50,910 nucleotides of DNA from the sequence record NC_048132.1; one strand, written 5' to 3'. Shown here piece after piece: positions 1,882 to 45,794 of the stretch; positions within the stretch are counted from its first letter, which is position 1; each line of letters starts with the position of its first letter. Made by a program: the position numbers and the translations under genes. This DNA comes from Escherichia phage vB_EcoS-95. The notes under the pieces were generated by a model. The model saw only the letters and a program-made list of their open reading frames with translations. It was not told the DNA's origin and did not search any database.

Positions 1882-1924
1882 TAGCATTTTTTGTTAAAAC
1901 AGTTTATTGTAATGAGTCTATTAT
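1882..1924 (+). promoter_or_regulatory. Box promoter (TAGCATTTTTTGTTAAAAC + -10-like TATTAT at 1919-1924) upstream of helicase
   Basis: Box and -10-like hexamer at the family-typical spacing; the reverse complement of the box abuts the RBS of the divergent HTH gene. Confidence 0.5.
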
Positions 1925-3954: not shown

Positions 3955-4373
3955 TGGCTATAACTGATAAAGGAGATTATCTTGAGTTTTACGAAAGAGA
4001 TCCAACCGACACGAGAAAGGAAGTTAATCACCAGATAGATAGCTTTCAGTGGTTGACTTATGCTCATCCTTATTTGCTAGCGTGGCATACGGTAAACGAG
4101 AATGAGAAGTCGAAAGTAACGGCGATGATTGATCAGCAGTCCGGCTTGGTTAAGGGGGTAAGCGATTTCATCATCCTGATTGGTTCAAACGGAAAATACC
4201 CCTTTGCAGCGATTGAGATCAAACGAGTTAATAAATCAGGCAAGGGGAAAGCATCACCAGTCAGCGATGAACAAAAGGCTTTTTTGCGTCGCGTTCGCAG
4301 TTTAGGAGGATTCGCTGCGGTCGCCTACGGATTTAATCAGTTTAAGTTAGCTATTGAATACATGCTTAAATAG
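3954..4373 (+). CDS. VRR-NUC domain nuclease
   Basis: GVSDFIILIG...AIEIKRVNKSGKG...QKAFL pattern typical of VRR-NUC (PD-(D/E)XK) nucleases; start overlaps helicase stop. Confidence 0.55.
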   Translation: MAITDKGDYLEFYERDPTDTRKEVNHQIDSFQWLTYAHPYLLAWHTVNENEKSKVTAMIDQQSGLVKGVSDFIILIGSNGKYPFAAIEIKRVNKSGKGKASPVSDEQKAFLRRVRSLGGFAAVAYGFNQFKLAIEYMLK

Positions 4374-4413
4374 CACTTTTTGTTAAAACTGGCGCGATGG
4401 ATTGCGCCATAAT
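4371..4413 (+). promoter_or_regulatory. Box promoter (box 4371-4389 overlapping stop TAG; hairpin GGCGCGATGGATTGCGCC; -10-like CATAAT 4408-4413)
   Basis: Exact 19-mer TAGCACTTTTTGTTAAAAC; fixed 18-bp gap to -10-like hexamer. Confidence 0.6.
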
Positions 4414-7281: not shown

Positions 7282-7497
7282 ATGAAAGATTTTATTAACG
7301 CAGCTACCGCCGGATCTGGCGGTTCATCTATCGCAAGCGCCGCGACAGGGCAGTTAACCATTGCTATTGCCAGCTTTGTTTTAATGGCTGCATTCGGTGC
7401 ATGGGGCGCTTACCTTCGCTGGCGTGATAGTAAAAAATTCCACGAGGCGATCGAAAATGGTGATATTCAAAAAGCTATTGAAATCAGGGGCAAGTAA
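7282..7497 (+). CDS. Holin (single TMD, 71 aa)
   Basis: Small protein with one hydrophobic helix and charged C-terminus, immediately upstream of endolysin. Confidence 0.55.
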
Positions 7498-7988
7498 TGA
7501 GCATAAAGAACAAGGTAGCGGCTGCGGCATTTGGCGTTGCGGTTGCCTTGACTTCTCCACTTCTTGAAGAGATCGAAGGGGTAAGATACAAGCCATACAA
7601 AGATATTGCGGGAATATGGACGGTTTGCGCAGGAATCACCGGACCAGATGTTATCCTGGGGAAAACGTACACTAAAAAAGAGTGTGATGCTTTGTTGGCT
7701 AAACATATCCAGGTTGCTAAAAAAGAAGTTGACAAGCAGGTTAAGGTTGACATTCCTGATAGTATGCGTGCAGCAATGTACTCATTCACTTATAATGCAG
7801 GTGTGGGAGCTTTCAGAAATTCAACAATGCTGAAACTCATCAACCAGGGGAAATTAAAAGATGCTTGCGATCAGCTTTATCGTTGGACGTATTACCATAA
7901 CCCCAAAACAGGAAGGCGCGAGAAGTCTAAAGGCTTACTTAACAGGCGCAAGGTCGAATACAAATATTGCACAATGGATCTGAAATGA
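7497..7988 (+). CDS. Endolysin (phage lysozyme, GH24-like)
   Basis: [23 protein letters not shown] catalytic-region motif of phage lysozymes; 163 aa. Confidence 0.7.
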
Positions 7989-8380
7989 TGAAGAAATTTT
8001 TACTTACACCAATCGCAATGGCGGTGATCTTGTCTGGATGTTCAAGCGTTACGCCACTGACCGGATTAATCGGCAGTAAGCCGGAAATAACAGCACAGGC
8101 TGGCGCTGAGAACGTGAAGCAGACAGTTGGCATTACAGCAAAGCAGGACGAAAGCACAAAACAGAAAACCACAATAAAGGAATCTGCGGTTGACAAGGTG
8201 GACACGTCCAGCAAGAAGGATTTCACAACATCAACCATTCAGGCCAATACCATCAAGGCAGAAAAAATTCAGGTCGTGCAGGGTAATAACGGCAGATGGT
8301 ACGATCCAATAATCATATGCGTGGTTGTGTTCATTGTGCTGATTTTTCTTTACTGGAGGGAAAAGAAAAAGGAGGCTTAA
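7985..8380 (+). CDS. Unimolecular spanin (u-spanin, T1 gp11-like)
   Basis: N-terminal lipoprotein signal with lipobox LSGC plus C-terminal TMD ([16 protein letters not shown]); start ATGATG overlaps endolysin stop. Confidence 0.6.
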
Positions 8381-8400
8381 TGCCTCCTTTATTTTTATGC
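8361..8400. terminator. Bidirectional rho-independent terminator between the lysis cassette and the convergent minus-strand block
   Basis: Hairpin AGGAGGC-TTAAT-GCCTCCT flanked by A/T runs on both sides. Confidence 0.55.
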
Positions 8401-8619
8401 GTCGGGCCACATATGAGTTTCGTTTGTTGGCTTGTTCGATTCGTCGTACTGCCTTACTTCAATGCTGCAAGTGTCGCCGTACAGTTCTGCAATCTTGCGC
8501 TCATTTTCAACCGCCGATTGCTCACTCCATCCAAAATCCCTGTCGTAAATTGTCGGGATTTCAGCAGAAGATCCGTTGTCATGATTATATACGCGAACTA
8601 CTAAAAACTTTCTGGACAT
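8395..8619 (-). CDS. Hypothetical protein
   Basis: 74-aa ORF; preceded by box promoter and conserved leader. Confidence 0.4.
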   Translation of the reverse strand: MSRKFLVVRVYNHDNGSSAEIPTIYDRDFGWSEQSAVENERKIAELYGDTCSIEVRQYDESNKPTNETHMWPDA

Positions 8620-8655
8620 AATTTTACCTTTTGGTTGTTTCGTTTCGATGAAACA

Positions 8656-8698
8656 AATATACCCGACACTAGGCCGGGCGTTTTAACAAAAAATGCTA
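8656..8698 (-). promoter_or_regulatory. Box promoter (minus strand; -10-like TATATT; leader CATCGAAACGAA)
   Basis: Reverse complement of box at 8680-8698, hairpin GCCCGGCCTAGTGTCGGG, hexamer at family spacing. Confidence 0.55.
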
Positions 8699-8816
8699 TT
8701 CCATACGCTTTACCGTAACCAGTAATACACCATCACCATTGCATAAAACATGTTCAGTGGTGCTAAAAGCGCGCATATCTGAATAAAGTAGCGTAAGTAA
8801 AGCATGAATAAAATCC

Positions 8817-9212
8817 TCATGTGATATTGAATTTACGGCGCAGTGCTTCAAGATCTTGTCTATTAGCTTTTGCCTGGAACAATTCATCATCGCCCATCTC
8901 CCCTATTCTAGCCATATCCCTGATCCAGTCGTTGCGCATACCATCCAGGCTATACAATTCGAATCCGAAAGGCCGCTTTGACGATCCTTTGGACCAGTAT
9001 TTTCCGCAGACCCCATCTATATAGCCAGCCGTCATCATTCTTGCGCAAAATTCCTTAGATGCAAGGCTGGCGAACATTCGCGGCGTAAGTCCGGCGGCCC
9101 GTGCGAGCCGCTCGCATTCTCTATGCTGATAGATAAATTTGGCTATGTGCTGCCTGTTAAACCAGTCGTATGACTCACACCATTTATACAGATCAAGCAA
9201 AAACATAATCAT
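8817..9212 (-). CDS. Hypothetical protein
   Basis: 131-aa ORF overlapping helicase stop (coupled). Confidence 0.4.
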   Translation of the reverse strand: MIMFLLDLYKWCESYDWFNRQHIAKFIYQHRECERLARAAGLTPRMFASLASKEFCARMMTAGYIDGVCGKYWSKGSSKRPFGFELYSLDGMRNDWIRDMARIGEMGDDELFQAKANRQDLEALRRKFNIT

Positions 9213-10789
9213 CCCAGCAGTATTGGATTGACAAAAATAACACCATTAATAACACAAACATAATTTCTTTCTTCCAGCATTGGCAGCAAGTGCCCTTCTA
9301 TCCTCTTCATTACGCCAGCTTGACCAACGAAAGGTTTTACCTTTCTCGCTGATTCGTACAGGGCGCGAATATTCAGAATCCCTTTATTAGCCTTGCCGTG
9401 TCTAGTGATCAATTCAATCAATTTGCCCATTTCAGCATCATCACCAGCATAACCAGAAGCATTGGCGGCGCTAATGTATGTTTTGCTCAATTCCTGAAAC
9501 ATGATCAGCGCCTCTTGCATTGTTTCCACGTCGATCTCTTTCGACTTCTGCGGGTATCCGGCAGGATTAAACCAGTTGCGGATAACATGCAGGACGGAAG
9601 CAAGCCTGATCACCTGTTTATCCATTTTACCCAGCGCACCGCGTAACATTGTATGAGAATACTTTCCGCCGTCTGCAAGATGCGGTTCCATATCCTGGCG
9701 AGCAATGTTTAGCACTCGCATAGCTGAACGGCTTATTTTCAGCGATATATTTGATTCGCTCATGATGTTATGCACCAATTGATAATATTGGGCCTTCAAT
9801 TCAGAATCAACCGCCTCATAGGTAGAATCACCATTTTCATCAATGAATGAGCGACGGCCTAAGAATGATTCCTCGCGGACCAACAAAAAGCGCTCACTCA
9901 CACCGATACCGCGCGATCCAGCGTCCATGATTCCGCTTATCGTTTCATCCTGGGCTATAACGCTCATACATCCAAGCGCGCGAAAACTCATGTTATTGTC
10001 AGCATTAGCACGGGCAATTGATACGTGACCATTATCCCACGCCTTAAGCACTAGCTCACTGTTAGTCTTCCTTTCGCTATTTGCATAGGTCAAGCCTAAC
10101 AGGCTGTTAATACTTGTTGCTTCGTCAGATATTACGGCAAAGTTACCTTGCTTGTTGTTGATTTTCGCCAAGCCTTCTGGAGTGGTATCTGAAACAGGGA
10201 AAGTTATATCACACATCTTTTCCAGCTTCTCCTCCAGATCCTCTTTTTCCTGGTATAGAGATTCCATATCAGCGCCTGATCTTTCGCTTTTCATCTCCTT
10301 TGCAAGACCTGCCAACTTTGCCTGTATTTTCTTTCTTTCCTTGCGGCGTTGCTCGTTGATCTTCTCAACTTCCGCAATCATCGGAGCAATAGCCATACTG
10401 TTGATCGCAGATTTACCAGTTGACGGCGGCTGGCTTGTAACGACGTAAAGCGCAGTCGGCTGATCGGTTCCGTGATAGTCAACTGTAAAGCGTCCAAGCA
10501 TAGCGGCAGAAATGCAGCCGATAAAGTGCATGTAAGCCGATGATTCAGGGAATTGAACTGATCGCGCAATGCTGCGTGATAGCTTGCCGACAACATCAAT
10601 ATCATTACCAAGAGAAATTACGGGGTAGCGATCGTGACCGCTATTTACATCCTTCACGTCGCCCCAAAAGCTGGACGACTGGCGATAGCCGTTAGCCTGA
10701 ATTGATACGCGAACTGGCGAAAGGTTCTGGCTTTCAGCCATAGCGATTATTTGCTGTGGAGTTAATTTGTTCGTTTCTAATGAAAACAT
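9209..10789 (-). CDS. SF3-type helicase / replication ATPase (P4-alpha or D5-like)
   Basis: Walker A SQPPSTGKS (SF3 GPPxTGKS pattern), Walker B-like FAVISDE; 526 aa. Confidence 0.5.
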   Translation of the reverse strand: MFSLETNKLTPQQIIAMAESQNLSPVRVSIQANGYRQSSSFWGDVKDVNSGHDRYPVISLGNDIDVVGKLSRSIARSVQFPESSAYMHFIGCISAAMLGRFTVDYHGTDQPTALYVVTSQPPSTGKSAINSMAIAPMIAEVEKINEQRRKERKKIQAKLAGLAKEMKSERSGADMESLYQEKEDLEEKLEKMCDITFPVSDTTPEGLAKINNKQGNFAVISDEATSINSLLGLTYANSERKTNSELVLKAWDNGHVSIARANADNNMSFRALGCMSVIAQDETISGIMDAGSRGIGVSERFLLVREESFLGRRSFIDENGDSTYEAVDSELKAQYYQLVHNIMSESNISLKISRSAMRVLNIARQDMEPHLADGGKYSHTMLRGALGKMDKQVIRLASVLHVIRNWFNPAGYPQKSKEIDVETMQEALIMFQELSKTYISAANASGYAGDDAEMGKLIELITRHGKANKGILNIRALYESARKVKPFVGQAGVMKRIEGHLLPMLEERNYVCVINGVIFVNPILLG

Positions 10790-10817
10790 TCGTTAGCTTC
10801 TCCTTTGTGGGCCGTAA

Positions 10818-10860
10818 ATTTTAACGGCCCAATACTACCCCGTTTTGTCAAAAAGTGCTA
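10818..10860 (-). promoter_or_regulatory. Box promoter variant (TAGCACTTTTTGACAAAAC) upstream of SF3 helicase
   Basis: Box overlaps stop TAG of the upstream gene; hairpin GGGCCGTTAAAATTTACGGCCC; -10-like TAAAAT. Confidence 0.5.
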
Positions 10861-11079
10861 TTTGATCCGCTCTATTGCAACCAGAAGTCGATCAGGCTGG
10901 CGGTCGCTGTAGCATTCTCCTGTAATCCCATCCTTAAACGCAAAGTAAAGCGCCTTATGATATGAAAAACCAATCAGCCAACCTACCGCCGTTTTTTTGA
11001 TGGGCCTGACTATATCGCCAGGCTTGAAAGTCTTTGTGGTAGAATGCGTTACTTTGTAACGGTTTTCACTGTTTATCAC
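10858..11079 (-). CDS. Hypothetical protein
   Basis: 73-aa ORF. Confidence 0.35.
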   Translation of the reverse strand: MINSENRYKVTHSTTKTFKPGDIVRPIKKTAVGWLIGFSYHKALYFAFKDGITGECYSDRQPDRLLVAIERIK

Positions 11080-11462
11080 AGATATTTGCCCTCAAACAGA
11101 TAACAGCCGCCAGCAGAGAATCCGACCTCTTCACGGTACAGGTTCCAGCGGTCGCCGCACTCATCAAAAACATAACCAGCAACGCTTCCAAGCGGTCGCC
11201 CTTTCTCGATCTGGTATCGCTTTCCCTGCTTAAAGTGCTTTTTGCACGGCATGTTATGATCTACAAACGTGCAAAGAACGGTTTTTGTGTTAATGGCGCG
11301 GTAATCATCTCGGTTTGCTGGAAGCCAGCGGCTACCCTTAACAAGCGTCTTAACCTGGAACTCTTCCACCTCGATCACATCATCACTTCCTGCAATCTTC
11401 TGATAAACCGTTTTAAAACGGCCTTTCATCAATACGTTGGTTTCATTACAGATAACATTCAT
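11076..11462 (-). CDS. Hypothetical protein
   Basis: 128-aa ORF with RBS AAGGAG. Confidence 0.4.
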   Translation of the reverse strand: MNVICNETNVLMKGRFKTVYQKIAGSDDVIEVEEFQVKTLVKGSRWLPANRDDYRAINTKTVLCTFVDHNMPCKKHFKQGKRYQIEKGRPLGSVAGYVFDECGDRWNLYREEVGFSAGGCYLFEGKYL

Positions 11463-11491
11463 GATCAGATCTCCTTTGTTTGTTCGATGTG

Positions 11492-11534
11492 ATTATGCCA
11501 GGTTTTTACACCTGGCTTTTAACAAAAAGTGCTA
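11492..11534 (-). promoter_or_regulatory. Box promoter (minus; hairpin GCCAGGTGTAAAAACCTGGC; CATAAT; leader CACATCGAACAAAC)
   Basis: Box overlaps stop TAG of the methyltransferase-like gene. Confidence 0.55.
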
Positions 11535-12242
11535 TTTTGAGTTTGACTCAAAGACGGCGCGAGCAAATCCGCGCGGAGTGAGTGAGCGGATCATCTTTGT
11601 GCGCGATGACTTACCGCCAGTTTTGGCCCAGCCTGGATTATCTTTGTCTTCCTCTTTCGGCAGGATTAAAGCGCGCGGAGGAATAACAAAGCCGTTGCCA
11701 GTCCAGAGGCACGTTTTCTTAAAATAGCGATCCCGCGCCGGAATAATATCAGGGAAGTCGGGATGTTTATCATCTTCCGGCAGATAGCCAGCGTAATCGC
11801 ACGGATGGAACGTATAATCAGGCTTTCGCCATAACGTTGACAACTTGCCAACCGGATTTTCGATCATGTAAGGAACACCGAAATAATCAGCTATATCAGC
11901 CGCGATTCTGCAAGTGTCGGCGGCCTCATCCTGGAACGATGGATTCTCAAGGCGTTTTTTGGCCCAATGGCGAGATCCGCTATTTGCAAGGTCGGTGCAC
12001 GGCGGAAATGCCATAATAAAGTCAGGAATGCCCCATTCCTCCCAGCGCGCGCGGTGGTAAAATCTTTCATCAATCCAGACGTTAACGTATTCGATATTCT
12101 CATGCTGTATGCGCACTGACTGGTAATCACCGTGATCGCCACCGTCAGCATTAAAGCAAATGCACTTATAGCCATTATCAGCCCAATCTTTAACGGCTTT
12201 ACCAGATCCATCAAATAGTGAGAATATTAAACCTTTATACAT
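11532..12242 (-). CDS. Compact DNA C5-cytosine methyltransferase-like protein (atypical PCT catalytic motif)
   Basis: Motif I LFDGSG, motif IV FPPCTDLANSGS (PCT instead of PCQ), motif VI ENPVG, C-terminal RSLTPRGFARAVF (motif X-like); about 236 aa with no obvious target-recognition domain. Confidence 0.45.
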   Translation of the reverse strand: MYKGLIFSLFDGSGKAVKDWADNGYKCICFNADGGDHGDYQSVRIQHENIEYVNVWIDERFYHRARWEEWGIPDFIMAFPPCTDLANSGSRHWAKKRLENPSFQDEAADTCRIAADIADYFGVPYMIENPVGKLSTLWRKPDYTFHPCDYAGYLPEDDKHPDFPDIIPARDRYFKKTCLWTGNGFVIPPRALILPKEEDKDNPGWAKTGGKSSRTKMIRSLTPRGFARAVFESNSK

Positions 12243-12252
12243 CGTCATTACC

Positions 12253-12477
12253 TCAAAACGGAAAACAGCGCGCACAACCAGGATCGAAATCGCATCCACA
12301 ATCATTAACAATCATAGTGGGATCTGCAAATATTGCGCTTGATTCAAGATACATATCCATATCACCTAAAGCCTCATCAAGAGTCTTAATTTTATATGCC
12401 ACTTCAAGCGCCGCCTCTTTATTTAGTCCGGCATCTTCTGCCATTTGAAGGCGCTCAAAAAAACCGTCTTGACTCAT
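12253..12477 (-). CDS. Hypothetical Cys-rich protein
   Basis: 74-aa ORF, C-terminal CGCDFDPGCARC. Confidence 0.35.
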   Translation of the reverse strand: MSQDGFFERLQMAEDAGLNKEAALEVAYKIKTLDEALGDMDMYLESSAIFADPTMIVNDCGCDFDPGCARCFPF

Positions 12478-12590
12478 CGCATAATCCCCTTAATAACAGC
12501 CAAGATAATAGCCAGACCAGCAGCAGTAACCAAAAATCCAACCGCGCCAATAATCGAATAAAAAAAGAAATCAATAGCTTTATCTATCAT
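12474..12590 (-). CDS. Small hydrophobic membrane protein (38 aa), not in ORF track
   Basis: ATG preceded by GAGGTG; MIDKAIDFFFYSIIGAVGFLVTAAGLAIILAVIKGIMR; stop TGA overlaps the next ATG (ATGA). Confidence 0.35.
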   Translation of the reverse strand: MIDKAIDFFFYSIIGAVGFLVTAAGLAIILAVIKGIMR

Positions 12591-12632
12591 TTTTCACCTC
12601 GTTTAAAAGGCGGCAAAACGCCGCCAGATTAA

Positions 12633-12860
12633 TTAAAGAGCGCGCCAACTTTGAATATAGAAAGCGTTTTCTTCCAGTAATTCTTTTACCTGATCTTTAT
12701 TGTATTTGCGCACCTTGCCGCCTGGATGGATACCAATAAGATAGCCGCCTTTGCCCTCGGTGATAGTGATTTGGCTAATTCCGCAGGACTTATCAAGTTT
12801 TACAGCCACGCGGTGATGAGCGTCAATAGTTGCCATAATGTTTAAAACTTTTGCTTTCAT
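12633..12860 (-). CDS. Hypothetical protein
   Basis: 75-aa ORF followed by hairpin GGCGGCGTTTTGCCGCC. Confidence 0.4.
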   Translation of the reverse strand: MKAKVLNIMATIDAHHRVAVKLDKSCGISQITITEGKGGYLIGIHPGGKVRKYNKDQVKELLEENAFYIQSWRAL

Positions 12861-12968
12861 TTAAATATCCTCAATTGAAATATGAATGACGTGGCGCTCT
12901 TTTTCCGTCGCCGCCGTAATGGTCATTTGCAACCGCCACCATCCAGGCGTTTTTGAAAATAAATAGCC

Positions 12969-13181
12969 TCATTTCTTATTTTTCAGCTTAAATTTATGAC
13001 CTGGAACACCAGCGCCAATATAGCCATCGTTGTATTCCATCAAATAAAGGTGAAGACCATTATCTGAAATTACATGAGGATCTTCTTTGAGATTTCCCAT
13101 TAGTGGATATTCTTTTCCGCGCGTAAATCTCCAAGTTGAGTTATAAGTTTCTACGCATTTAAGTTTTAATTGCTTTGCCAT
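12969..13181 (-). CDS. Hypothetical protein
   Basis: 70-aa ORF. Confidence 0.35.
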   Translation of the reverse strand: MAKQLKLKCVETYNSTWRFTRGKEYPLMGNLKEDPHVISDNGLHLYLMEYNDGYIGAGVPGHKFKLKNKK

Positions 13182-13462
13182 TATGCGATCCCAGTTACGT
13201 TAAAACTTACAGCCTTTGTTGCGCTAAATACATAAGCATCAACAGCGCCGCCAAATACACGAATTTTACCCTGGCCGTACTGCGCATTCATATTTCGCCA
13301 AACCGTTCTATTAGAGCAGAATGCGCTACCAGTCTTAATGAGCGTATCCATCTCTTTTCTTAGATCGCGATAGTCCATCCAGAATCTAAATGCACGCTGT
13401 TTAATTCGCGCCGCCTTGATTTTTTCTCTTGCGCTATTGAAATCATTCTTTTCGTATGCCAT
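13181..13462 (-). CDS. Hypothetical protein
   Basis: 93-aa ORF, start overlaps upstream stop. Confidence 0.35.
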   Translation of the reverse strand: MAYEKNDFNSAREKIKAARIKQRAFRFWMDYRDLRKEMDTLIKTGSAFCSNRTVWRNMNAQYGQGKIRVFGGAVDAYVFSATKAVSFNVTGIA

Positions 13463-13659
13463 TAAATGATCTCCATGTATGTTTCAAAGCCATTTAACTT
13501 GAACAGGCCGTTTTCACATTTGCGCACGTTCCAAGTTAGACCTGAGTGGTACGCCTCCATATCATCAAGGTCAATGGTGATTTCAGCGCCTTTCTTAAAC
13601 AAACCTTTTTCGTGAGACTTGTCGCGCTTAACAACTTTAACATCAACCTGATTTTCCAT
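13462..13659 (-). CDS. Hypothetical protein
   Basis: Trimmed to MENQVDVKV (RBS GAGGAT) from track 13462-13710. Confidence 0.4.
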   Translation of the reverse strand: MENQVDVKVVKRDKSHEKGLFKKGAEITIDLDDMEAYHSGLTWNVRKCENGLFKLNGFETYMEII

Positions 13660-13690
13660 CTTTAAATCCTCGCTTGTTGTCGATGGGTGT

Positions 13691-13733
13691 AATATACCAT
13701 TCAGGCGCACATCGTTTTTAACAAAAAGTGCTA
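13691..13733 (-). promoter_or_regulatory. Box promoter (minus; -10-like TATATT; leader CATCGACAACAA)
   Basis: Box overlaps stop TAG of upstream gene; fixed spacing to hexamer. Confidence 0.55.
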
Positions 13734-45181: not shown

Positions 45182-45794
45182 AATCATAGTGCGATGAATT
45201 TATAACCAAAACAGATGAAGCCGTGTAAATACCAACAGGACCAGAAGTTTGCGCAACCTGCCTAGATAAAGAATATACCCCGTTGCCATACGCGGCAGCT
45301 TGAGACTCAAATATCATGAATCCACCTAAAGACGGATTACGCACAGAGTTTAAAGCTGTTAGTGACGGCATGATGGCGCAAGGGTATCCCAAGTTAACGT
45401 CAAAAGTGATCCCGCTTACAGATACAAGTTTTGCATCTAAAGGCTTCATCTTTCCATGATAAACCATCTCACCATTAGCATTATAAAAAGCTATTCCGTG
45501 ACTACCAGGAGGAGTAACCATATTGCTAAAAGCATAAACAAATACCTCACCTTGATTGTCGGACTTTTCTATCTTTATTGCGTGCTTCCCACCATTATTA
45601 AATTGAGTAAATGCTATGTATGATTTTGATGTTAACCTTACAAAAAAGAAGCACGGTCTATTTATTGGTATAGAAGTATTAAAAACGGTTCCTGTTTTTG
45701 CTGATATTTTACCTTTATCTATAAGGTTAACAGGAGTGAAATCTGGACTTAACCACAATGATCCGTCTGGTTTTTTTATGCTCATCCCGTACAT
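45180..45794 (-). CDS. Hypothetical protein (possible receptor-binding or exclusion-related)
   Basis: 204 aa; start overlaps upstream stop; last gene of the Cor-like operon. Confidence 0.35.
   Translation of the reverse strand: MYGMSIKKPDGSLWLSPDFTPVNLIDKGKISAKTGTVFNTSIPINRPCFFFVRLTSKSYIAFTQFNNGGKHAIKIEKSDNQGEVFVYAFSNMVTPPGSHGIAFYNANGEMVYHGKMKPLDAKLVSVSGITFDVNLGYPCAIMPSLTALNSVRNPSLGGFMIFESQAAAYGNGVYSLSRQVAQTSGPVGIYTASSVLVINSSHYD

What the first reader, a model, noticed from the sequence alone, without database searches (positions are those of the whole stretch)
8710..12590. Unannotated small hydrophobic ORFs translationally coupled to neighbours
A 38-aa membrane-like ORF (12590-12474, RBS GAGGTG, ATGA overlap with the next gene) and a 31-aa hydrophobic ORF (8805-8710, RBS GAGGA) fall below the ORF-track size cut-off but have good translation signals. 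Phage micro-proteins of this kind often target host membrane or division proteins.
Basis: seen in the sequence. Interest (0 to 1): 0.35.

Follow-up and report, generated by a model that had tools for sequence, protein, structure and literature searches.

The report
One real micro-gene, one frame shadow
In this T1-like coliphage the 38-codon ORF is a real, conserved gene for a single-helix membrane micro-protein that related phage records already annotate, with no function known, while the 31-codon ORF is only the wrong reading frame of a widely conserved 64-codon gene.

Summary
The window is a Warwickvirus (Drexlerviridae, T1-like) coliphage, 99% identical to phage NorthRox.

ORF 12590-12474 (38 aa) is confirmed. 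It has a GAGGTG Shine-Dalgarno and an ATGA stop/start overlap with the next gene. AlphaFold predicts one long hydrophobic helix (pLDDT 94). Its frame is the only one open in 18 of 18 related loci. dN/dS is 0.2-0.5. It is found in 103 phage genomes of the genera Warwickvirus and Hanrivervirus. It is already annotated as a hypothetical protein (pSf-1 gp23, atuna gp76), and a few records call it "TamB", which is wrong. Function is unknown. It is accessory: most Drexlerviridae have nothing in this slot, and a Klebsiella-phage clade carries a 40-aa membrane ORF there with no detectable homology.

ORF 8805-8710 (31 aa, or 36 aa from ATG 8820) exists but is not a gene. In Hanrivervirus-like and more distant relatives its frame carries stop codons. 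The overlapping 64-aa ORF 8696-8890 is intact in 691 phage genomes, down to 37% identity. Substitutions are mostly synonymous in the 64-aa frame and mostly non-synonymous in the 31/36-aa frame. The finding's own refutation condition is therefore met.

Overall the finding is ordinary: one known hypothetical micro-gene and one frame artefact. A by-product is that the 64-aa gene, which starts inside the upstream 131-aa gene, is missing from three RefSeq records.

The parts
12474..12590 (-). 38-aa gene for a single-pass membrane micro-protein, MIDKAIDFFFYSIIGAVGFLVTAAGLAIILAVIKGIMR. Real and conserved, but accessory.
   Evidence: ORF. Annotated in relatives. Present in 103 phage genomes. Only frame open in 18/18 loci. 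dN/dS 0.22-0.51. AF2 gives a helix over residues 2-37, pLDDT 94. Hydropathy 2.51.
12595..12600 (-). Shine-Dalgarno GAGGTG of the 38-aa gene. The GAGG core lies 6 nt before the ATG.
   Evidence: Read. The equivalent GAGGTG/GGTGA is kept in relatives.
12605..12625 (-). GC hairpin GGCGGC-GUUUU-GCCGCC plus UUUU, between the 75-aa gene and the 38-aa gene. Probably a weak terminator/attenuator or an mRNA-stabilising stem.
   Evidence: Fold gives centroid -12.8 kcal/mol, z = -2.6. The structure is kept with different stem sequences (GGGAGG, GGGCGG, GGCGGG) across genera. The strict terminator scan did not call it, because it has only 4 T.
12253..12477 (-). 74-aa Cys-rich gene (phrog_9323). Its ATG overlaps the stop of the 38-aa gene, and its SD (AAGGGG) is codons 34-35 of that gene.
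8696..8890 (-). 64-aa gene (phrog_9539). This is the conserved coding frame here. It starts in the +1 frame, 74 nt inside the 131-aa gene.
   Evidence: phrog_9539 E = 6.5e-25. tblastn finds it in 691 phage records at 80% coverage or more. Intact in all of L004-L012, L045 and L046. 22-24 synonymous against 11-13 non-synonymous changes. AF2 gives helix-helix-beta hairpin, pLDDT 70.
8710..8820 (-). 31-aa ORF (ATG 8805) or 36-aa ORF (ATG 8820). It is an off-frame shadow of the 64-aa gene, not a gene.
   Evidence: Stop codons in this frame in L007-L012. 5-7 synonymous against 26-30 non-synonymous changes. tblastn finds it in only 61 records, 56 of them at 80% identity or more.
8817..9212 (-). 131-aa gene (phrog_2794, called 'YdbL' in some records). 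Its C-terminal tail after DDELF overlaps the 64-aa gene and varies among relatives.
8681..8698 (-). One copy of the genome-wide repeat TAGCAYTTTTTGTTAAAA. Its TAG is the stop codon of the 64-aa gene.
   Evidence: The repeat family is described for TLS, T1 and Rtp in PMC11447400.

Best explanation
The window is a T1-like Warwickvirus coliphage, and both ORFs lie in leftward-transcribed units of DNA-metabolism genes.

(1) ORF 12590-12474 is a genuine gene.
- Shown: ribosomes can start at its own GAGGTG site just after a conserved GC hairpin. They would stop on an ATGA that is also the start of the 74-aa Cys-rich gene, whose Shine-Dalgarno is built into codons 34-35 of the small gene. The two are therefore arranged for translational coupling.
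- Shown: the product is one about 36-residue hydrophobic helix with short polar ends.
- Inferred: by the positive-inside rule it sits in the inner membrane with the N terminus out and the C terminus in.
- Inferred: it acts through helix-helix packing along a conserved small-residue stripe (G15, G18, A24-G25) with a membrane partner.
- Inferred: because the slot is empty in most Drexlerviridae and holds a membrane ORF with no detectable homology in a Klebsiella-phage clade, it is a host-specific accessory function. Examples would be superinfection exclusion or modulation of a host inner-membrane protein. It is not a core replication function.

(2) ORF 8805-8710 is not a gene. It is the -1 frame of a conserved 64-aa gene (8890-8696). 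That gene initiates at a conserved ATG formed by the GAT-GAx codons of the upstream 131-aa gene and ends on the TAG inside the intergenic 21-nt repeat.
For: Identity of the phage: 99% to NorthRox, with the same gene order.

38-aa gene:
- Signals read directly.
- Annotated in many relatives.
- 103 phage genomes at 49-100% aa identity.
- Sense frame open in 18/18 loci, against at most 10/18 for any other frame.
- dN/dS is 0.22 within Warwickvirus, 0.40 within Hanrivervirus and 0.51 between them.
- Invariant residues are K4, D7, F10, G15, G18, V21, A24, G25, L26, I28, I29 and K34.
- AF2 gives a single helix, pLDDT 94. Hydropathy is 2.51.
- The ATGA overlap is kept in both genera and in the non-homologous Klebsiella 40-aa ORF.
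- Synteny 75 aa - slot - 74 aa - methyltransferase - 128 aa holds in 23 of 24 loci; the methyltransferase and flanking genes differ in L036.

31-aa ORF rejected:
- Stops in its frame in L007-L012.
- Synonymous/non-synonymous counts are 5-7/26-30, against 22-24/11-13 for the 64-aa frame.
- 61 records against 691 by tblastn.
- In closely related phages the 64-aa product is 95% identical where the 36-aa one is 81% (tunus).
- phrog_9539 matches the 64-aa product.
Against: There are no expression data (Ribo-seq, proteomics) for any of these phages in the library searched.

Constraint on the 38-aa product is loose:
- dN/dS is higher than for the flanking genes in most comparisons: 0.03-0.12, except 0.39 for the 74-aa gene within Warwickvirus.
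- Warwickvirus and Hanrivervirus versions share only about 50% identity.
- Phage vB_Eco-B1.2 has a stop at codon 34.
- Metagenomic variants change the 'invariant' glycines: G15C and G25V.
- Part of the C-terminal conservation (K34, G/E35) may reflect the embedded Shine-Dalgarno rather than the protein.

Topology, partner and biological role are inference only. The start of the 64-aa gene at ATG 8890 is inferred from conservation of the ATG and an upstream GGAG. A frameshift fusion with the 131-aa protein is not excluded.
Confidence: 0.8

Rival explanations
1. The 38-aa ORF is translated, but only as a leader or coupling ORF. Its job would be to carry ribosomes past the hairpin to the 74-aa gene, and the peptide itself would have no function.
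For: - The ATGA overlap, with the downstream SD embedded in its last codons.
- Relaxed dN/dS of 0.2-0.5.
- Many relatives lack it, and there the 74-aa gene has its own strong SD directly after the hairpin.
- A natural truncation exists at codon 34.
Against: - A leader peptide has no need to be a membrane helix, yet hydrophobic helix character and 12 residues are invariant across two genera.
- A non-homologous ORF in the same slot of Klebsiella phages is also a single hydrophobic helix.
- Within Warwickvirus, changes are mostly synonymous.
Confidence: 0.12
2. The 38-aa product is a membrane-damaging peptide. It could resemble a type I toxin or act as a holin or antiholin. It would depolarise the host membrane or tune lysis timing rather than bind a specific partner.
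For: - Its size and single hydrophobic helix resemble such peptides (own knowledge).
- Glycine-rich helix face.
Against: - It lies about 4 kb from the lysis genes (endolysin 7497-7988, spanin 7967-8380, plus strand), on the other strand, inside a DNA-metabolism unit.
- No family hit.
- It is dispensable in most Drexlerviridae.
Confidence: 0.1
3. The 31/36-aa ORF is a real second product, overprinted on the 64-aa gene and specific to Warwickvirus.
For: - Good GAGGA site, and an ATGA overlap at 8820.
- The frame is open in all Warwickvirus genomes examined.
- It is annotated as a CDS in NorthRox and vB_Eco-B1.2.
Against: - Within Warwickvirus almost every substitution is non-synonymous in this frame: 0 synonymous against 5, and 1 against 7.
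- The frame is broken in the next genus.
- Hydropathy is below a membrane-helix threshold.
- An open frame over 36 codons among 96-99% identical genomes is expected by descent alone.
Confidence: 0.03
4. The 64-aa reading frame is expressed as a C-terminal extension of the 131-aa protein by a programmed +1 frameshift, not as a separate protein.
For: - The two frames overlap by 35 to about 120 nt in every lineage examined.
- The SD before ATG 8890 is weak in some genera.
Against: - The ATG is conserved at the same place in all lineages examined, with GGAG 8-9 nt upstream in Warwickvirus and Hanrivervirus.
- I noticed no slippery sequence when reading the overlap, but ran no systematic search.
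- The upstream frame has its own stop in every genome.
Confidence: 0.05

Closest known systems
Hypothetical protein family of Warwickvirus/Hanrivervirus phages (Shigella phage pSf-1 gp23, Escherichia phage atuna gp76, FritzSarasin bas04_0051)
   Same: Same gene. It is 49-100% identical, in the same slot between the 75-aa and 74-aa genes, with the same ATGA overlap.
   Different: Nothing differs. This is membership, and none of these records gives a function.
Small bacterial inner-membrane regulators (AcrZ, MgtS, KdpF, CydX) and phage T4 Ac
   Same: They are 30-50 residues with one transmembrane helix and act by binding a larger membrane protein (own knowledge). PMC13250531 says the T4 ac gene is assumed to interact with the AcrAB-TolC pump.
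   Different: There is no sequence similarity, and no partner is known here. The resemblance is architecture only.
Inner-membrane superinfection-exclusion proteins of phages (T4 Imm, HK97 gp15)
   Same: Small accessory membrane proteins that vary between related phages (own knowledge). Whether this gene is expressed early is not known.
   Different: Those proteins are larger. No homology was found, and no exclusion phenotype has been tested.
TamB (translocation and assembly module subunit B), the name given in SECphi27, vB_Eco_Sip and JLBYU07 records
   Same: At most a resemblance to a hydrophobic signal-anchor helix.
   Different: TamB has more than 1,200 residues and a DUF490 domain (own knowledge). 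This protein has 38 residues and no Pfam or NCBIfam hit. The name is an annotation error.
PHROG 9539 (64-aa protein) and overlapping-gene pairs in phages
   Same: The 64-aa product matches phrog_9539 over its whole length. It starts inside the preceding gene in another frame.
   Different: Its function is unknown. It has no Pfam hit above the curated cut-off and no significant fold match in the PDB.

Membership tests
Warwickvirus/Hanrivervirus 36-38-aa hypothetical membrane protein (pSf-1 gp23 family) | Sequence similarity over the full length | tested here: met
   tblastn finds 103 records at 80% coverage or more. Identity is 90-100% in Warwickvirus and 49-65% in Hanrivervirus. Alignment A3 has 12 invariant columns.
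Warwickvirus/Hanrivervirus 36-38-aa hypothetical membrane protein (pSf-1 gp23 family) | Syntenic position between the 75-aa gene plus hairpin and the 74-aa gene, with an ATGA overlap | tested here: met
TamB | Large protein (more than 1,000 aa) with a TamB/DUF490 C-terminal domain | tested here: not met
   38 aa, with no Pfam or NCBIfam hit.
Holin or antiholin | Encoded in the lysis cassette next to the endolysin | tested here: not met
   The endolysin and spanin are at 7497-8380 on the plus strand. The ORF is at 12474-12590 on the minus strand, in the methyltransferase unit.
Holin or antiholin | Membrane hole formation, or control of lysis timing | not testable with these tools
   Needs expression and lysis-curve experiments.
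Type I toxin | Small hydrophobic toxic peptide with an overlapping or adjacent antisense RNA antitoxin | tested here: inconclusive
   The hydrophobic peptide criterion is met. No Rfam RNA is found in 8000-13500. Toxicity and an antisense transcript were not testable.
PHROG 9539 (for ORF 8696-8890) | Profile match over the full length | tested here: met
   E = 6.5e-25, residues 5-64 matching profile positions 5-64 of 64.
Protein-coding gene (for ORF 8710-8805/8820) | Frame kept open, with an excess of synonymous change, in relatives | tested here: not met
   Stops in L007-L012. 5-7 synonymous against 26-30 non-synonymous changes.

The most novel reading that the evidence does not exclude
The slot just after the conserved hairpin has been filled independently. 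One 36-38-aa single-helix membrane ORF sits there in E. coli/Shigella phages, and a 40-aa one with no detectable homology sits there in Klebsiella phages. Each is ATGA-coupled to the same conserved 74-aa Cys-rich protein. The micro-protein might therefore be a host-specific membrane partner or anchor of that protein. Together they would form a two-part module, for example for superinfection exclusion or counter-defence, whose membrane half is swapped with the host.
Probability: 0.12. Interest if true: 0.5.

Novelty: already known. Interest (0 to 1): 0.15.

Why it matters
It matters little for biology as it stands. The 38-aa gene is already in public records as a hypothetical protein, and nothing here reveals what it does.

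The practical value is for annotation of Drexlerviridae:
- The 31-aa CDS carried by some records (NorthRox, vB_Eco-B1.2) should be replaced by the 64-aa gene.
- That 64-aa gene is conserved in about 690 phage genomes but missing from the three RefSeq records examined.
- The 'TamB' label on the 38-aa protein should be dropped.

If the micro-protein proved to be a host-specific membrane effector, it would be one small handle on an open question named in the TLS paper (PMC11447400): how T1-like phages take over the host.

Tried and rejected
- Family searches for the 38-aa protein (PHROGs, Pfam, NCBIfam, PADLOC) gave no hit.
A 42-aa version found only three near-identical clusters.
- Exhaustive HMMER against 1.84 billion representatives found only its own cluster.
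- hhalign of the Warwick/Hanriver family against the Klebsiella 40-aa family gave probability 3%, so homology is not supported.
- The 64-aa protein was modelled with AF2 (pLDDT 70). Foldseek against the PDB gave a best E of 1.4, so nothing usable. The protein database holds only three clusters for it.
- Rfam found nothing in 8000-13500.
- Simple sigma-70 promoter matches were no more frequent than in shuffles: 11 against 10.5.
- Five literature searches for functional or expression data on small proteins of T1-like phages found none. They returned only the TLS paper on the 21-nt repeat, plus unrelated holin and daunorubicin papers.
- The antisense 78-aa ORF 12396-12632 over the small gene was considered and rejected, because it is broken in Hanrivervirus loci and in L014.
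- The 39-aa TTG ORF in another frame of the same stretch was also rejected.
- The 55-aa hydrophobic ORF 45456-45623 is antisense to a 208-aa gene and was dismissed.


Full report
**What the window is.** The stretch 8300-13000 is 99.0% identical over its full length to Escherichia phage NorthRox. It is 97-99% identical to the 29 other best-matching coliphage records listed; those whose taxonomy I checked are genus Warwickvirus (Drexlerviridae, Tempevirinae), i.e. T1-like siphoviruses. All genes in 8395-13710 run on the minus strand. In transcription order they are:
- a 75-aa gene;
- the 38-aa ORF;
- a 74-aa Cys-rich gene;
- a Dcm-like methyltransferase;
- 128-aa and 73-aa genes;
- a 526-aa helicase;
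- a 131-aa gene ('YdbL' in some records);
- the disputed region 8696-8890;
- a 74-aa gene.

The lysis genes (endolysin 7497-7988, u-spanin 7967-8380) lie next door on the plus strand.

The sequence reads GAGGTG-AAAA-ATG at 12600-12588. The ORF ends ...ATG CGA TGA, where the ATGA is also the start of the 74-aa gene. An in-frame TGA two codons before the ATG fixes its length. The downstream gene's Shine-Dalgarno (AAGGGG here, AAGGAG in Hanrivervirus) is codons 34-35 of the small ORF.

Between the 75-aa gene and the ORF lies a GC hairpin, GGCGGC-GUUUU-GCCGCC-UUUU (12625-12605). Its centroid energy is -12.8 kcal/mol, z = -2.6. The hairpin is conserved as a structure with different stem sequences across genera, whether or not the small ORF follows it.

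In a census of the window, 205 ATG-ORFs have 25-60 codons. Only two combine a strongly hydrophobic 19-residue window, an SD-like motif and a start codon at their stop. The other one is antisense to a 208-aa gene.

**The 38-aa ORF is a real gene.**
- tblastn finds it in 103 phage genomes. Identity is 90-100% in Warwickvirus and about 49-65% in Hanrivervirus, which includes records labelled Campylobacter phage that are classified as Hanrivervirus.
- In 18 loci from both genera, its frame is the only one of six that is open in all 18. The others are open in at most 10. This removes the antisense 78-aa ORF and the 39-aa TTG ORF in another frame.
- Nei-Gojobori dN/dS is 0.22 within Warwickvirus, 0.40 within Hanrivervirus and 0.51 between them. 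The flanking genes mostly give 0.03-0.12; the exception is the 74-aa gene within Warwickvirus, at 0.39. This is purifying selection, but loose, as expected for a peptide that is mostly one membrane helix.
- Twelve residues are invariant: K4, D7, F10, G15, G18, V21, A24, G25, L26, I28, I29 and K34.
- AlphaFold gives one helix over residues 2-37 with pLDDT 94. The best 19-residue hydropathy is 2.51.
- Charges are D3, K4, D7 at the N end and K34, R38 at the C end. By the positive-inside rule this suggests N-out, C-in. That is inference.

**The 38-aa gene is already known, and it is accessory.** It is a CDS in NorthRox, FritzSarasin, MikeNSara, atuna (RefSeq gp76), BEK12B, pSf-1 (gp23), Fulano1 and JakobBernoulli. 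SECphi27 and two others call it 'translocation/assembly module TamB'. That name cannot be right for a 38-residue protein with no Pfam or NCBIfam hit.

Among 24 IMG/VR loci that share the 74-aa gene (23 also keep the 75-aa - slot - 74-aa - methyltransferase - 128-aa order, L036 differs), the slot content varies:
- Seven carry this ORF.
- Eleven have nothing: nine of them have the hairpin followed directly by the 74-aa gene's own SD, and in L017 and L032 the two genes abut without a hairpin.
- Six carry a different 40-aa hydrophobic ORF (MMNGVEKVIEILVAVFIFLGCLLVGGMVFMVFDEIWRTLL). In five of these it is again ATGA-coupled; in L031 the stop is lost and the ORF reads on. It occurs in Klebsiella phages RCIP0096 and P-K7R.

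Profile comparison gives no support for homology between the two families (probability 3%).

Some natural variants loosen the picture. vB_Eco-B1.2 has a stop at codon 34. Metagenomic clusters carry G15C or G25V.

**Function of the 38-aa protein.** No search gave a lead. PHROGs, Pfam, NCBIfam and PADLOC had no hit. The word-indexed protein search found three near-identical clusters. Exhaustive HMMER over 1.84 billion representatives found only its own cluster. The literature searches found nothing relevant.

My best reading is inferred from architecture and phyletic pattern only. It is a bitopic inner-membrane micro-protein made together with the 74-aa protein. It would act through helix-helix contact along its small-residue stripe with a membrane partner. 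The function would be host-specific and dispensable, such as superinfection exclusion or modulation of a host membrane protein.

I put about 0.85-0.9 on 'real translated gene', and roughly 0.35 on this mode of action. The main rival is a pure coupling or leader ORF. The conservation of membrane-helix character in two families without detectable homology argues against that rival.

**The 31-aa ORF: present but not a gene.** The ORF 8805-8710 and its GAGGA site exist. The same frame also opens at ATG 8820, which overlaps the TGA of the 131-aa gene. Comparative data reject it.
- In Hanrivervirus-like loci L007-L011 and in the more distant L012, this frame carries one or more stops. The overlapping frame 8890-8696 is intact and clearly homologous: MKNCLRQMLIDKILKFCAVSSISHDDF...GVLLVTVKRIE, and in L012 ...HTLCNQDGELILLVQRFK.
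- In the stretch shared by both ORFs but outside the 131-aa gene, changes relative to the window are 22-24 synonymous and 11-13 non-synonymous in the 64-aa frame. In the 31/36-aa frame they are 5-7 and 26-30.
- Within Warwickvirus the pattern is the same: 4 to 1 against 0 to 5, and 6 to 2 against 1 to 7.
- tblastn finds the 64-aa product in 691 phage records, all at 80% coverage or more and down to 37% identity. Hosts are Klebsiella, Escherichia, Shigella, Salmonella, Citrobacter, Enterobacter and Cronobacter.
- The 36-aa product is found in only 61 records, 56 of them at 80% identity or more. There it is less conserved than the 64-aa product (81% against 95% in phage tunus).
- The 64-aa product matches phrog_9539 over its full length, E = 6.5e-25.
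- The 31/36-aa peptide is also less hydrophobic than a membrane helix (1.86).

The finding's own 'would refute' clause is met.

**What is really at 8696-8890.** It is a 64-aa gene that starts in the +1 frame, 74 nt inside the 131-aa gene. Its ATG is created by the GAT-GAx codons of the conserved D-D/E-E-L-F motif. GGAG lies 8-9 nt upstream in Warwickvirus and Hanrivervirus.

The tail of the 131-aa protein after that motif varies from 6 to 43 residues among genera, while the 64-aa frame stays homologous. The overlap region shows fewer substitutions (12 in 68 nt) than the non-overlapping part (33-37 in 105 nt), consistent with double constraint.

The gene ends on the TAG inside a copy of the genome-wide repeat. 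AlphaFold on a shallow alignment gives helix-helix-beta hairpin at pLDDT 70, with no significant PDB match. Function is unknown.

Public annotation of this stretch is inconsistent:
- FritzSarasin has the 64-aa CDS.
- NorthRox and vB_Eco-B1.2 have the 31-aa CDS.
- RefSeq atuna, SECphi27 and Klebsiella phage Alina have neither.

A +1 frameshift fusion with the 131-aa protein is not excluded, but the conserved ATG makes it unlikely.

**Verdict.** One ORF is a real, already annotated micro-gene for a hypothetical membrane protein. The other is a reading-frame artefact of a conserved, often unannotated 64-aa gene. Nothing here lies outside known kinds of phage gene organisation, so interest is low. 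The mildly interesting residue is the recurrent occupation of one slot by single-helix ORFs with no detectable homology, each coupled to the same 74-aa protein.

Noticed in passing
window, about 17 sites, e.g. 8681-8698(-), 10843-10860(-), 11517-11534(-), 13716-13733(-), 1882-1899(+), 4371-4388(+): The 18-mer TAGCACTTTTTGTTAAAA occurs 13 times with no mismatch (16 if the Y/W/Y degenerate positions are counted) and 20 times with up to 3 mismatches, against 0.8 expected. In the minus-strand region I read (8.4-13.7 kb) the copies are co-oriented with the genes.

In the three copies I read:
- its TAG is the stop codon of the upstream gene;
- it is followed by a 6-bp GC hairpin;
- a TATAAT-like hexamer lies about 22 nt after TTGTTA.

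The repeat is already described for TLS, T1 and Rtp (aaATAGCACnnnTTGnTAAAA). Its function is listed there as an open question (PMC11447400).
   Followed up: partly
window 12871-12972 (-): A 33-aa ORF, MRLFIFKNAWMVAVANDHYGGDGKRAPRHSYFN, is ATGA-coupled to the 70-aa gene upstream and matches phrog_32259 (E = 1e-19). It is 63-100% identical across Drexlerviridae loci in which the neighbouring 75-aa gene is only 36-50% identical. It therefore looks like a better conserved micro-protein than the 38-aa one. RefSeq atuna and SECphi27 do not annotate it.
   Followed up: partly
window 8817-8890 (-), and L012, L045, L046: There is a conserved gene overlap. The 64-aa gene starts inside the 131-aa gene in every lineage examined, with an overlap of 35 to about 120 nt. 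The C-terminal tail of the 131-aa protein is variable in length and sequence, and looks like unconstrained read-on over the 64-aa frame.
   Followed up: partly
L028-L030, L033, L034 at about 1379-1501; L031 has the same ORF with its stop lost (IMG/VR loci; also Klebsiella phages RCIP0096 and P-K7R): A 40-aa hydrophobic ORF with no detectable homology (MMNGVEKVIEILVAVFIFLGCLLVGGMVFMVFDEIWRTLL) occupies the same slot. It is also ATGA-coupled to the homologue of the 74-aa gene.
   Followed up: partly
window 11532-12311 (-): The methyltransferase start is ambiguous. The mechanical ORF starts at TTG 12311 (259 aa, overlapping the 74-aa gene). NorthRox and FritzSarasin annotate 774 nt. RefSeq atuna and SECphi27 start at ATG 12242 (236 aa), which has a GAGGT site 7 nt upstream and no overlap.
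   Followed up: no
L003 (vB_Eco-B1.2), small-ORF homologue: There is a natural nonsense mutation (AAG to TAG) at codon 34 of the 38-aa gene. It removes the charged C-terminal tail and the ATGA coupling in an otherwise viable phage isolate.
   Followed up: no
window 12253-12477 (-): The 74-aa protein ends in a conserved four-cysteine motif, CGCDFDPGCARCFPF, which may bind a metal. It has no Pfam hit, and phrog_9323 has no known function.
   Followed up: no
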